A DNA stretch of 64,000 bases from Escherichia coli (GTDB lineage Bacteria; Pseudomonadota; Gammaproteobacteria; Enterobacterales; Enterobacteriaceae), in the NCBI RefSeq assembly GCF_044647545.1, contig NZ_CP172818.1. The stretch is one strand, 5' to 3'. A model generated the notes under the pieces. The model had not been told where the DNA came from and ran no database searches. It was given only the letters and a program-made list of their open reading frames with translations. Shown piece after piece: positions 1,603 to 54,780 of the stretch. The stretch's first letter is position 1. Every line of letters begins with the position of its first letter. Position numbers and translations under genes: made by a program.

Positions 1603-1796
1603 TTACTTTGCTCCATTCCGTGCTGGCTGCGCTTGCGGTCAGCACACCTCACTTCTCGTGATCAAGATCACATTCTCGCTTTCCCCTGCGACACGGGTGT
1701 CGAATCCATTTATTGCTGAACGTTAATGACCATCATTTTTGTACCGTTCAGAATCCAGTTAACACATAAATTATTGAATATATTAAATTAATCAGA

Positions 1797-52955: not shown

Positions 52956-53161
52956 TTTTCATCCCTGCCACAATGGCCCGTTAGCAACGTCGAATAATTA
53001 TTATGCGTGAGAATTTACGTTATGTAATTCAGTATCACGCCCATACAATCCGAATTTTAGTGAGAATTGTGGCTCAGACAGCCAAATCAGCCTCTTTTGC
53101 TTGTCGCTTTTCACTAAACATCCGACAATTTAGCCTAACCCCGGCAAAAATGGAGATGCCT

Positions 53162-54007
53162 ATGTCCACGACATGGTTTGTAGGAGCCGACTGGCTCGCC
53201 GAACATATTGATGACCCGGAAATTCAGATTATCGATGCCCGCATGGCGTCGCCTGGACAGGAAGATCGTAACGTTGCTCAGGAGTATCTGAATGGACATA
53301 TTCCCGGCGCAGTGTTTTTTGATATCGAAGCGCTTTCTGATCACACTTCCCCGCTTCCGCACATGCTGCCGCGCCCGGAAACGTTCGCCGTGGCGATGCG
53401 TGAGTTAGGCGTTAACCAGGATAAGCACCTGATTGTCTATGACGAAGGTAATCTTTTCTCAGCCCCACGAGCATGGTGGATGCTGCGCACCTTTGGTGTA
53501 GAGAAAGTGTCGATTCTGGGGGGTGGACTTGCAGGCTGGCAGCGCGATGTTCTGCTGTTAGAAGAAGGTGCAGTAGAGCTGCCGGAAGGAGAGTTTAACG
53601 CCACGTTTAATCCTGAAGCCGTGGTGAAAGTCACCGATGTGTTATTGGCAAGCCATGAAAATACGGCGCAAATTATTGATGCCCGCCCGGCTGCACGTTT
53701 TAACGCAGAAGTTGATGAACCTCGCCCAGGTTTACGTCGCGGACATATTCCCGGTGCATTGAACGTTCCGTGGACGGAACTGGTGCGCGAAGGCGAATTA
53801 AAAACGACCGATGAACTGGATGCGATATTTTTTGGTCGCGGCGTCAGCTATGACAAACCGATTATCGTCAGCTGCGGCTCTGGTGTAACGGCAGCCGTGG
53901 TTTTGTTGGCACTCGCGACGCTGGATGTGCCAAACGTGAAACTGTACGACGGCGCATGGAGTGAATGGGGCGCACGGGCAGATTTACCGGTTGAGCCATT
54001 GAAATAA
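53162..54007 (+). CDS. sseA: 3-mercaptopyruvate sulfurtransferase (tandem rhodanese)
   Basis: 281 aa from ATG 53162 (MSTTWFVGADWLAEH...); catalytic Cys in CGSGVTA. Confidence 0.92.
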   Translation: MSTTWFVGADWLAEHIDDPEIQIIDARMASPGQEDRNVAQEYLNGHIPGAVFFDIEALSDHTSPLPHMLPRPETFAVAMRELGVNQDKHLIVYDEGNLFSAPRAWWMLRTFGVEKVSILGGGLAGWQRDVLLLEEGAVELPEGEFNATFNPEAVVKVTDVLLASHENTAQIIDARPAARFNAEVDEPRPGLRRGHIPGALNVPWTELVREGELKTTDELDAIFFGRGVSYDKPIIVSCGSGVTAAVVLLALATLDVPNVKLYDGAWSEWGARADLPVEPLK

Positions 54008-54023
54008 GCTTTTTACAGGCAAT

Positions 54024-54051
54024 AAAAAACCGCCGAATTTGGCGGTTTTTT
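54024..54051. terminator. sseA terminator hairpin (copy 1 of a duplicated hairpin)
   Basis: aaaaaaccgcc-gaattt-ggcggtttttt; an about 80% identical copy recurs at 54295-54325. Confidence 0.7.
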
Positions 54052-54294
54052 ATTGCTGGTCTGTTCCCTCAATATACCAAACACCCACGACACAAACTCC
54101 TAACCTCTTTCAACAAAAAATTTCTTTATTATATCCACTGCGGCCCTTTCCGCCAACTTAAAAAATGTTCGGTAATAAAATAACCTGGCTTATTAGTCCG
54201 AATTCGGACAAATATAAACAAATCAGCTCAATATTAAAAATACTAATCGGTAAAAGATATTACTTAAACGTGTAAATTCACTTTCTTTAAACAA

Positions 54295-54325
54295 CAAAAA
54301 ACCGCCAAAATCAGGCGGTTTTTTG
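54295..54325. repeat. Second copy of the A-run/hairpin/T-run element (terminator-like)
   Basis: aaaaaaccgcc-aaaatcag-ggcggtttttt followed by gttgctggt, as after copy 1. Confidence 0.6.
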
Positions 54326-54474
54326 TTGCTGGTTTGGTTCGCGGCCTTTCCAGCAGATTGGCTTGTGTTGCATGAGCAACGCAGGTGCTTCACAGCAAAG
54401 CAATACTCGCCAGTAACTCTCTTTTTGTCAAGCGAAAGAGAGTAATCATTGTTTATTTAGCGTATTATCGACAC

Positions 54475-54780
54475 CGGCCCTTTCCGCCGTCTCGCAAACG
54501 GGCGCTGGCTTAAGGAAAGGATGTTCCATGGCCGTAAATGCAGGTGTTTCACAGCGCTTGCTATCGCGGCAATATCGCCAGTGGTGCTGTCGTGATGCGG
54601 TCTTCGCATGGACCGCACAATGAAGATACGGAGCTTTTGTATCGTACTTATTGTTTCTGGTGCGCTGTTAACCGAGGTAAATAATAACCGGAGTCTCTCC
54701 GGCAACAATTTATTGGTGGTTAACAACCTTCAGAACAGCAGGTAAGCCCGAATGCCGCCCTTTGGGGCGGCATATTTTAG
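54475..54780 (+). ncRNA. ryfA: ryfA-like small RNA / small-protein mRNA (boundaries approximate)
   Basis: -10-like TATTAT at 54463-54468; transcript would run to the terminator atgccgccc-tttg-gggcggcat + T-tract at 54752-54780; about 305 nt; position between sseA and sseB. Confidence 0.45.
54521..54595 (+). CDS. Candidate 24-aa hydrophobic small protein within the ryfA-like transcript (type-I toxin-like)
   Basis: Strong SD AAGGAAAGG directly upstream of ATG; MFHGRKCRCFTALAIAAISPVVLS*. Alternative ORF 54620..54745 (41 aa, MKIRSFCIVLIVSGALL...) has no obvious SD. Confidence 0.3.
   Translation: MFHGRKCRCFTALAIAAISPVVLS

What the first reader, a model, noticed from the sequence alone, without database searches (positions are those of the whole stretch)
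54521..54745. Two candidate small hydrophobic ORFs inside the ryfA-like transcript
ORF-1 (54521-54595, 24 aa, MFHGRKCRCFTALAIAAISPVVLS) has a strong SD and a basic N-terminus followed by a hydrophobic stretch. ORF-2 (54620-54745, 41 aa, MKIRSFCIVLIVSGALLTEVNNNRSLSGNNLLVVNNLQNSR) has a TM-like helix but no obvious SD and might be translationally coupled or not translated. Both are below the 60-aa cutoff of the supplied ORF track and would be missed by standard gene callers. Small membrane peptides of this size are typical type-I toxins.
Basis: seen in the sequence. Interest (0 to 1): 0.5.

Follow-up and report, generated by a model that had tools for sequence, protein, structure and literature searches.

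The report
Known TimP toxin plus chance ORF
One of the two small ORFs is the already known and annotated membrane toxin gene timP of the enterobacterial timP/TimR toxin-antitoxin locus, and the other is a non-conserved reading frame lying across the structured RNA leader that controls that toxin, so the finding is ordinary.

Summary
Both ORFs are in the sequence as described. ORF-2 (54620-54745) is timP. It matches NCBIfam toxic_TimP at 79.8 bits against a cut-off of 45. RefSeq annotates it at exactly these coordinates in an identical E. coli genome. It lies in the ryfA RNA (Rfam, 314 bits) between sseA and sseB, with the antitoxin sRNA gene timR upstream on the other strand (54396-54296). Its reading frame is intact in 50 of 51 distinct homologous sequences.

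ORF-1 (54521-54595) lies wholly in the timP 5' leader, and every part of it coincides with an RNA element. Its "strong SD" is the 3' arm of the lower SL1 stem. Codons 4-5 appear to be switch site 2 of the published model. Codons 6-12 are the TimR target. Codons 15-24 and the stop are SL3 with the pseudoknot strand.

ORF-1 is not conserved as a gene. It has TAG at codon 6 in 2,807 of 5,426 complete E. coli genomes. It has no start codon in Yersinia, Erwinia, some Citrobacter and Salmonella (ATA). Its pN/pS is about 1, against 0.46 for the timP N-terminus.

Verdict: already known (timP); ORF-1 is most likely a chance frame. Whether TimP is actually made in E. coli is still untested.

The parts
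54474..54778 (+). timP mRNA, formerly called the sRNA RyfA: 5' leader, timP CDS and terminator
   Evidence: Rfam RF00126 ryfA, 314.5 bits against a gathering score of 80, full length 1-296. The K-12 ryfA annotation (b4440) starts at the equivalent base. The fold z-score is -5.57.
   Evidence: NCBIfam NF040796 toxic_TimP, 79.8 bits against a cut-off of 45. RefSeq CDS WP_242812848.1 lies at exactly these bases in a 100% identical genome. The exact sequence is named TimP on about 1,000 contigs. ATG and ORF are intact in 50 of 51 distinct homologs.
54608..54619 (+). Alternative in-frame upstream ATG in the SL4 loop, giving a 45-aa version
   Evidence: the ORF listing reports 54608..54745. The 45-aa version was used for CFT073 (PMC8205139). 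In Salmonella the start equivalent to 54620 was proven by an ATG->AAG mutation (PMC7667032).
54521..54595 (+).
   Evidence: TAG at codon 6 in 2,807 of 5,426 E. coli genomes. No start codon in 9 of 26 distinct leaders or in Salmonella (ATA). pN/pS 0.98 across all taxa and 1.43 within Escherichia. The peptide is absent from the 15-billion-protein collection. No CDS is annotated over it in the RefSeq rows shown.
54480..54519 (+). SL1. The lower stem pairs CUUUCC (54480-54485) with GGAAAG (54514-54519); the 3' arm is ORF-1's 'SD'
   Evidence: Rfam consensus structure. 98.1% of cells are paired, and 2 of 6 pairs change on both sides. The GGA core has an unpaired probability of 0.02 or less. In Salmonella this stem is needed for timP translation (M7/M7', PMC11228461).
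54503..54509 (+). Pseudoknot 5' strand (site 1, CGCUGGC), which pairs with 54577-54583
   Evidence: 7 pairs, 100% of cells paired, 4 pairs with compensatory changes. The pseudoknot is essential for translation in Salmonella (PMC11228461).
54530..54535 (+). GGCCGU, probably 'site 2' of the published RNA switch (ORF-1 codons 4-5)
   Evidence: G57, C59, C60, G61 and T62 are invariant. By eye it is complementary to site 1 and to the 5' arm of SL4. The model is that of PMC13000454. Assigning site 2 to these bases is my inference.
54537..54560 (+). SL2 (54541-54560) carrying the TimR target (54537-54555), which is ORF-1 codons 6-12
   Evidence: Complementary to the TimR 5' end over 16 bp (one G.U), plus a 3-bp extension. 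This site and the upstream TimR 5' end covary in more than 20 loci. SL2 is 97.3% paired.
54563..54596 (+). SL3, including the pseudoknot 3' strand 54577-54583. ORF-1's stop UGA (54593-54595) lies in its basal stem
   Evidence: Rfam structure and pair counts.
54597..54616 (+). SL4 (GCGGUCU/GGACCGC), which sequesters the weak timP SD (GGAC)
   Evidence: Rfam structure. G, A and C of GGAC have an unpaired probability of 0.04 or less. SD sequestration in SL4 was shown in Salmonella (PMC11228461). Its invariance in my sample is forced by the search pattern.
54752..54778 (+). Intrinsic terminator of the timP mRNA
   Evidence: 9-bp G+C-rich stem followed by a T-run. It is the end of the Rfam model.
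54296..54396 (-). timR, the antitoxin sRNA gene (about 101 nt), divergent from timP
   Evidence: 91 of 101 aligned positions (about 90%) match the annotated K-12 timR (b4811). The first 26 nt are identical. It ends in a terminator hairpin with a U-run. Rfam has no family for it.

Best explanation
The interval is the 5' two-thirds of the timP mRNA (old name RyfA) of the enterobacterial type I toxin-antitoxin locus timPR. ORF-2 is timP itself, a 41-aa inner-membrane toxin.

In the published Salmonella model, the full-length mRNA first folds so that the weak SD is locked in stem-loop SL4. A purely structural switch then frees the SD and recruits the 30S subunit: a pseudoknot forms between SL1 and SL3, and site 2 pairs with SL4. 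The divergently encoded sRNA TimR pairs with the SL2 loop and prevents the switch, which keeps the toxin off.

ORF-1 is not a gene. It is the frame that happens to stay open across SL1's 3' arm (its apparent SD), site 2, the TimR target and SL3 (its stop codon). It stays open because this leader tolerates no indels and is G+C-rich.

Shown here by computation: the identity of timP; the presence and complementarity of timR; conservation and covariation of the RNA structure; and the non-conservation of ORF-1. Taken from the literature for Salmonella and inferred for this E. coli allele: toxicity, membrane targeting, the switch mechanism and TimR repression.
For: Identity of the locus:
- Rfam ryfA, 314.5 bits.
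- NCBIfam toxic_TimP, 79.8 bits against a cut-off of 45.
- RefSeq timP CDS at identical coordinates.
- K-12 annotates timR, ryfA and timP, and nothing else, between sseA and sseB.

timP behaves as a gene:
- ATG and ORF intact in 50 of 51 distinct homologs from Escherichia, Citrobacter, Superficieibacter, Yersinia, Rahnella and Erwinia.
- pN/pS of the N-terminal 20 codons is 0.46 in frame, against 0.80 and 1.02 in the other two frames.

RNA structure:
- 96-97% of 1,040 pair cells are standard pairs, against 38-48% when partners are slid by 1-3 columns.
- The pseudoknot is 100% paired, with 4 of 7 pairs compensatory.

TimR:
- About 90% identical to K-12 timR (91 of 101 aligned positions), with an identical first 26 nt.
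- Its 5' end covaries with SL2 locus by locus.

Against ORF-1 as a gene:
- The TAG-at-codon-6 allele is in 2,807 of 5,426 E. coli genomes. Intact-type alleles are in 1,969 and 235.
- The start codon is missing in 9 of 26 distinct leaders and is ATA in Salmonella (primer sequences).
- pN/pS is 0.98 and 1.43, the worst of the three frames.
- The SD core is paired.

Mechanism: PMC7667032, PMC11228461 and PMC13000454.
Against: - No experiment shows TimP synthesis or toxicity from an E. coli allele.
- In UPEC and APEC the ryfA phenotypes did not need the ORF, and deleting timR had little effect (PMC8205139, PMC13188913).
- Within Escherichia alone the timP pN/pS is only 0.71, and one off-frame scores lower (0.61), so the coding signal is weak at that scale.
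- ORF-1 keeps its ATG in all Escherichia sequences sampled.
- Its frame has no internal stop in 22 of 26 distinct leaders, which is more open than the other two frames.
- ORF-1 is intact in K-12 and in roughly 40% of E. coli genomes, so occasional translation there cannot be excluded.
- SL4 invariance in my sample is an artefact of the search pattern.
Confidence: 0.85

Rival explanations
1. ORF-1 is a translated leader ORF in the E. coli alleles where it is intact. Ribosomes terminating at UGA 54593-54595, one base before SL4, would melt SL4 and couple ORF-1 translation to timP initiation, as mok does for hok. TimR bound across codons 6-12 would block this.
For: The geometry fits. The stop lies 1 nt before SL4 and 24 nt before the timP AUG. 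TimR's target lies inside ORF-1. The ATG is retained in every Escherichia sequence sampled and in Rahnella and Superficieibacter. The frame is the most open of the three.
Against: More than half of E. coli genomes stop at codon 6 while keeping timP intact. There is no start codon in Salmonella, Yersinia, Erwinia and some Citrobacter. The SD is sequestered in a stem that is itself required for timP translation in Salmonella. Mutating the only AUG-initiated uORF in Salmonella had no effect, and translation worked in a purified system by way of the pseudoknot. A GFP fusion to a putative start site in S. dysenteriae ryfA1 (predicted 30-aa product; which ATG and which RBS I could not establish) gave no protein (PMC5333039).
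Confidence: 0.06
2. ORF-1 encodes an independent second small hydrophobic toxin or membrane peptide.
For: It has a basic N-terminus followed by a 15-residue hydrophobic stretch. This puts it in the top 2.8% of small ORFs in the window, and it is the only one that also has an SD core.
Against: It is not conserved within the species. pN/pS is 1 or more. The variable middle (codons 6-12) tracks the TimR sequence rather than any peptide property. The hydrophobic stretch is shorter than a typical membrane span. It matches no NCBIfam family, and the peptide is absent from protein collections.
Confidence: 0.02
3. In E. coli the transcript works only as a regulatory RNA (RyfA), and timP is an untranslated relic.
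For: ryfA alleles with the ORF destroyed complemented all UPEC phenotypes (PMC8205139). Loss of timR had minimal effects in APEC (PMC13188913). K-12 ribosome-profiling supplements do not list it. Within-Escherichia pN/pS is 0.71, which does not stand out from the off-frames.
Against: The ORF, its ATG and its length are kept in 50 of 51 distinct sequences across six genera, despite high nucleotide divergence. The whole translation-control apparatus (SL4, pseudoknot, TimR pairing) is conserved and covaries. The N-terminal coding signal is in the right frame. An RNA role and a toxin role are not mutually exclusive.
Confidence: 0.1

Closest known systems
timP/TimR (timPR) type I toxin-antitoxin system of Salmonella enterica and other Enterobacteriaceae (Andresen et al. 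2020, PMC7667032; Eleftheraki & Holmqvist 2024, PMC11228461; Eleftheraki et al. 2026, PMC13000454)
   Same: The RNA family (ryfA) and the protein family (toxic_TimP) are the same. So is the position before sseB. It has a divergent TimR with a 5' end complementary to SL2. The four stem-loops are the same, as are the SL1-SL3 pseudoknot and the SD locked in SL4.
   Different: This is an E. coli allele: 41 aa rather than 38, with a different C-terminal half and a different SL2/TimR sequence class. The leader contains a 24-codon open frame that Salmonella lacks (ATA instead of ATG). Expression and toxicity of E. coli TimP have not been demonstrated.
RyfA1/RyfA2/RyfB1 sibling sRNAs of Shigella dysenteriae (Fris et al. 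2017, PMC5333039)
   Same: The locus is homologous. RyfB1 is TimR. Specificity of each antisense RNA for its own RyfA copy matches the allele-specific covariation seen here.
   Different: The window has one ryfA/timP copy, not two. The Shigella work treated the RNAs as non-coding.
hok/mok/Sok translational coupling (plasmid R1)
   Same: A structured toxin mRNA with a sequestered SD and an upstream overlapping frame. This is the model that ORF-1 superficially resembles.
   Different: mok is conserved and required for hok translation. ORF-1 is not conserved. The Salmonella uORF, which is in a different frame, is dispensable, and timP uses a pseudoknot and RNA switch instead.

Membership tests
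TimP toxin (NCBIfam NF040796) / timPR type I TA | The protein scores above the curated family cut-off | tested here: met
   79.8 bits against a cut-off of 45, residues 1-39 of 41. The identical protein is named TimP in NCBI.
TimP toxin (NCBIfam NF040796) / timPR type I TA | The ORF lies inside the ryfA RNA (RF00126), about +145 from the transcript start | tested here: met
   ryfA match at 54474-54778. The ATG at 54620 is +147 from the K-12-annotated start, which is +145 in Salmonella numbering.
TimP toxin (NCBIfam NF040796) / timPR type I TA | A divergent upstream sRNA (TimR) whose 5' end is complementary to the timP 5'UTR, followed by an intrinsic terminator | tested here: met
   Window 54396-54296 (-) is about 90% identical to K-12 timR. 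It gives a 16-19 bp duplex with 54537-54555. It covaries with SL2 across loci.
TimP toxin (NCBIfam NF040796) / timPR type I TA | A leader of four stem-loops with an SL1-SL3 pseudoknot and the SD sequestered in SL4 | tested here: met
   96-97% of cells are paired. The pseudoknot is 100% paired with 4 compensatory pairs. The SD G, A and C have an unpaired probability of 0.04 or less.
TimP toxin (NCBIfam NF040796) / timPR type I TA | The product is an inner-membrane protein that is toxic on overexpression and is repressed by TimR | not testable with these tools
   Shown only for Salmonella. It is explicitly undetermined for E. coli.
Functional upstream/leader ORF (mok-like coupling) - for ORF-1 | Start codon and reading frame conserved among homologs | tested here: not met
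   TAG at codon 6 in 2,807 of 5,426 E. coli genomes. Non-start triplets in 9 of 26 distinct leaders. ATA in Salmonella.
Functional upstream/leader ORF (mok-like coupling) - for ORF-1 | An accessible ribosome-binding site | tested here: not met
   GGAAAG is the 3' arm of the SL1 lower stem: 98.1% paired, with covariation. The GGA core has an unpaired probability of 0.02 or less.
Functional upstream/leader ORF (mok-like coupling) - for ORF-1 | Downstream translation depends on it | not testable with these tools
   Only the different-frame 8-codon Salmonella uORF was tested, and it had no effect.
Small hydrophobic type I toxin peptide - for ORF-1 | Purifying selection on the peptide (a synonymous over non-synonymous pattern) | tested here: not met
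   pN/pS is 0.98 across all taxa and 1.43 within Escherichia, higher than both off-frames.
Small hydrophobic type I toxin peptide - for ORF-1 | A hydrophobic segment long enough to span a membrane | tested here: inconclusive
   The best 15-aa Kyte-Doolittle window scores 2.29 (top 2.8% of small ORFs), but the stretch is only about 15 residues.

The most novel reading that the evidence does not exclude
In the K-12/window-type alleles, found in roughly 40% of E. coli genomes, the intact 24-codon ORF-1 might be translated at a low level. Termination one base before SL4 would then help open SL4. This would give these alleles an extra, allele-specific, TimR-sensitive route to TimP synthesis that Salmonella and the TAG-class E. 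coli alleles lack.
Probability: 0.05. Interest if true: 0.4.

Novelty: already known. Interest (0 to 1): 0.08.

Why it matters
It matters little as a discovery. timP/TimR is published, and NCBI's pipeline already annotates timP at these bases.

There are two useful points. First, a convincing-looking small ORF (SD motif, basic N-terminus, hydrophobic tail) can be produced entirely by a structured, indel-intolerant RNA leader. Population-level frame checks expose this quickly. Second, TimP expression has never been shown for an E. coli allele, so the question of a dual-function RNA versus a toxin remains open in E. coli.

Tried and rejected
- **Genome scan too loose.** Only 15 of 120 loci were Enterobacterales, and Salmonella was missed because its SL4/start context differs (GACCGCAACATGA).
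- **Protein searches did not reach Salmonella.** Searches with E. coli TimP and with Citrobacter TimP returned only Escherichia/Shigella (plus one partial sequence labelled Klebsiella) or Citrobacter proteins. One call failed on the 40-aa minimum.
- **A wrong guess, corrected.** I first took locus L151 for Salmonella, because it fits the published nucleotide numbering. The protein look-up shows its TimP is that of Citrobacter amalonaticus. The Salmonella sequence around the ORF-1 start was recovered from primer tables instead.
- **Duplex folding uninformative.** Whole-molecule RNAduplex of TimR against the leader gave -67 kcal/mol, against -59 +/- 5 for shuffles. The pairing claim therefore rests on direct reading and on covariation.
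- **Ribosome-profiling papers on K-12.** Neither main text mentions ryfA. The one held supplement lacks ryfA, both start coordinates and both peptides. The other paper has no held supplement. This is weak negative evidence only.
- **No Rfam family for TimR**, even at E = 1.
- **Promoter scan.** It found no consensus sigma-70 promoter for timP or timR. The transcript start is taken from the K-12 annotation and the Salmonella primers.

Full report
**1. The observation**

Both ORFs exist as described. ORF-1 is listed at 54521..54595 (+, ATG, 24 aa, MFHGRKCRCFTALAIAAISPVVLS). ORF-1 is preceded by UAAGGA (54511-54516). ORF-2 is preceded only by a weak GGAC. The whole region is a full-length match to the Rfam family ryfA (RF00126, 314.5 bits, 54474-54778). 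It lies between sseA (ending at 54007) and sseB (minus strand, from 54777).

**2. ORF-2 is timP**

- A 501-base query around the finding matches 5,425 of 5,426 complete E. coli genomes, and every listed record annotates timP under the match.
- In the 100% identical genome NZ_CP033850, the timP CDS (WP_242812848.1) maps to window 54620-54745, which is exactly ORF-2.
- The peptide scores 79.8 bits against NCBIfam NF040796 toxic_TimP, whose cut-off is 45. ORF-1 and the 31-aa frame starting at 54528 match nothing.
- The exact ORF-2 sequence is named TimP on about 1,000 contigs.
- E. coli K-12 annotates timR (b4811), ryfA (b4440) and timP (b4812) between sseA and sseB, and nothing else.

The published work was done in Salmonella.
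- TimP is a 38-aa inner-membrane toxin encoded in the former sRNA RyfA. Its start codon was proven by an ATG->AAG mutation. It is repressed by the divergent sRNA TimR, which pairs with the 5'UTR (PMC7667032).
- The SD is locked in SL4. Translation needs a pseudoknot between SL1 and SL3, which TimR binding disrupts (PMC11228461).
- A site 2-site 4 interaction frees the SD, and a site 1-site 2 interaction holds the inactive state (PMC13000454).

**3. The antitoxin gene is present**

The minus strand 54396-54296 matches the annotated K-12 timR at 91 of 101 aligned positions (about 90%). Its first 26 nt are identical, and it ends in a terminator hairpin with a U-run. Its 5' end, GCUGUGAAGCACCUGC, pairs with timP 54540-54555 (GCAGGUGUUUCACAGC) over 16 bp with one G.U. 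The pairing extends 3 bp further, to 54537. Rfam has no family for TimR.

**4. Comparative set**

Pattern scans of genome and metagenome collections gave 66 ryfA copies and 51 distinct sequences. By record title or protein look-up they include Escherichia species, Citrobacter, Superficieibacter, Yersinia, Rahnella and Erwinia. At the aligned positions, timP has an ATG and an intact 38-42-codon frame in 50 of 51 sequences; one metagenome copy is frameshifted.

**5. ORF-1 is not conserved**

- The commonest E. coli allele reads ATG TTC CGC GAC CGT TAG, which is five codons.
- An allele-specific 35-mer ending in that TAG is found in 2,807 of 5,426 complete E. coli genomes.
- The two intact-type alleles are found in 1,969 and 235 genomes.
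- None of the records listed in those searches annotates a feature over the ORF-1 region.
- The aligned start triplet is AGT, AAT, TCG, ATT, ACT, GGT or ACA in 9 of 26 distinct leaders.
- The Salmonella primers of PMC11228461 read GGAGAGGATAACCCATGGCCGTAAGCG. The ORF-1 start is therefore ATA there, and the only AUG is the one at +53.
- That +53 AUG corresponds to window 54528, which is a different frame. It opens an 8-codon uORF, and mutating it did not affect timP translation.
- Pooled pN/pS in the ORF-1 frame is 0.98 across all taxa and 1.43 within Escherichia, higher than both off-frames.
- For comparison, the first 20 timP codons give 0.46 in frame, against 0.80 and 1.02 off-frame.
- Neither the window's ORF-1 peptide nor the K-12 version is in the 15-billion-protein collection.

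**6. What constrains the ORF-1 sequence instead**

I counted pairs on a 26-sequence leader alignment. With the Rfam secondary structure, 96.3% of cells are standard pairs. With the pseudoknot added, the figure is 97.3%. When partners are slid by 1-3 columns it falls to 38-48%.

| ORF-1 segment | Window bases | RNA element | Evidence |
|---|---|---|---|
| "SD" GGAAAG | 54514-54519 | 3' arm of the SL1 lower stem, pairing with 54480-54485 | 98.1% paired, 2 pairs compensatory; GGA core unpaired probability 0.02 or less; stem required for timP translation in Salmonella |
| Codons 4-5, GGCCGU | 54530-54535 | Probably site 2 of the switch | Nearly invariant; assignment to site 2 is my inference |
| Codons 6-12 | 54537-54555 | TimR target in SL2 | Most variable part of the "peptide"; a near-identical copy lies 85-100 nt upstream of ryfA in more than 20 loci and changes in step with SL2, allele by allele and genus by genus |
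| Codons 15-24 and the stop | 54563-54596 | SL3 | Codons 19-21 carry the pseudoknot 3' strand; pseudoknot 100% paired, 4 of 7 pairs compensatory |

The upstream copy in the third row is the TimR 5' end on the other strand. Those codons therefore evolve as an RNA-RNA specificity determinant.

The frame has no internal stop in 22 of 26 distinct leaders, including those with no start codon. Stops are rare in all three frames of this G+C-rich, indel-free segment.

**7. Chance**

The window contains 283 ATG-ORFs of 24-60 aa. Of these, 23 have an SD core, and 2.8% reach ORF-1's hydrophobic score. About 0.65 such ORFs are therefore expected per window by chance.

**8. Caveats**

- TimP synthesis and toxicity have not been shown for any E. 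coli allele.
- ORF-destroying ryfA alleles complemented the UPEC phenotypes (PMC8205139).
- Loss of timR had little effect in APEC (PMC13188913).
- A GFP fusion to a putative start in Shigella ryfA1 gave no protein (PMC5333039). I could not tell which ATG was used.
- A K-12 ribosome-profiling supplement lists neither ORF.
- Within Escherichia the timP coding signal is weak: pN/pS is 0.71, and one off-frame scores 0.61.
- SL4 invariance in my sample is forced by the search pattern.

**9. Verdict**

ORF-2 is the known, annotated type I toxin gene timP. ORF-1 is most likely a chance open frame across the timP regulatory leader. A low-probability residual reading is that, in the alleles where ORF-1 is intact, terminating ribosomes next to SL4 contribute to timP activation.

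Noticed in passing
window 54138-54338 (+): There is a full-length Rfam IS128 sRNA match here (188 bits). Its first ~22 nt (54139-54160, CTGCGGCCCTTTCCGCCAAC) repeat the ryfA 5' end. In K-12 the equivalent junction is a ryfA promoter-like stretch plus the first ~20 nt of ryfA, fused to the IS128 body. IS128 therefore looks like a remnant of a duplicated ryfA start. Its 3' end overlaps timR antisense and shares the hairpin at 54300-54325 as a bidirectional terminator.
   Followed up: partly
window 54019-54056: A terminator hairpin just after sseA matches the terminator of the annotated K-12 timR, which sits at this position in K-12. The rest of that timR copy is absent from the window, which keeps only the timR copy next to ryfA.
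   Followed up: partly
L173 (E. coli K-12 NC_000913.3) about 1683-1778, minus strand: K-12 has a second, unannotated TimR-like copy next to ryfA. Its 5' end (GCUGAGACGCGCUUGC) matches the SL2 of the TAG-class timP alleles, not K-12's own timP. The annotated timR, 400 nt further away, is the one that matches K-12 timP.
   Followed up: partly
window 54537-54560 and homologous loci (L001, L004, L005, L016, L029, L047, L064, L099, L123, L147, L167, L170 and others): The E. coli locus is unusually diverse: the 501-base query is 86-100% identical across genomes. It falls into discrete SL2/TimR sequence classes found in 2,807, 1,969 and 235 genomes. TimR's 5' end covaries with SL2 in each class, which suggests orthogonal toxin-antitoxin RNA pairs and recombination between them.
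   Followed up: partly
L001 1139-1264 and 1821-1946; also L146, L153, L156: Some E. coli genomes carry two tandem timP copies of different allele classes, as with Shigella ryfA1/ryfA2. In L001 they are separated by an sseB pseudogene fragment. The window has one copy, identical to copy 2 of NZ_CP033850.
   Followed up: partly
window 54521-54592 and alignment A1: The ORF-1 frame has no internal stop in 22 of 26 distinct leaders, including those with no start codon. The comparable counts are 16 of 26 and 5 of 26 for the other two frames. This is probably a by-product of conserved RNA elements and G+C content, but it was not formally tested.
   Followed up: partly
L140 (metagenome contig Ga0157363_1000132): This is the only one of 51 distinct homologs in which timP is disrupted: a frame change gives a 24-aa product.
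   Followed up: no
L169 (human gut metagenome contig): This is a mosaic allele. Its SL2 (GCAGGCACACCGTAG) matches the target of the Salmonella TimR primer sequence, and it has the 8-codon uORF MAVSAGTP. Its timP, however, is an E. coli-type 41-aa sequence.
   Followed up: no
window 54687-54703 (-): The conserved hairpin CCGGAGUCUCUCCGG inside the timP coding region is flagged as terminator-like on the minus strand. It is part of the Rfam ryfA consensus structure.
   Followed up: no
window 53003-54007 (+): The mechanical ORF for sseA is 334 aa, but RefSeq K-12 sseA is 846 nt (281 aa). The long N-terminal extension is therefore probably only an artefact of taking the first start codon.
   Followed up: no
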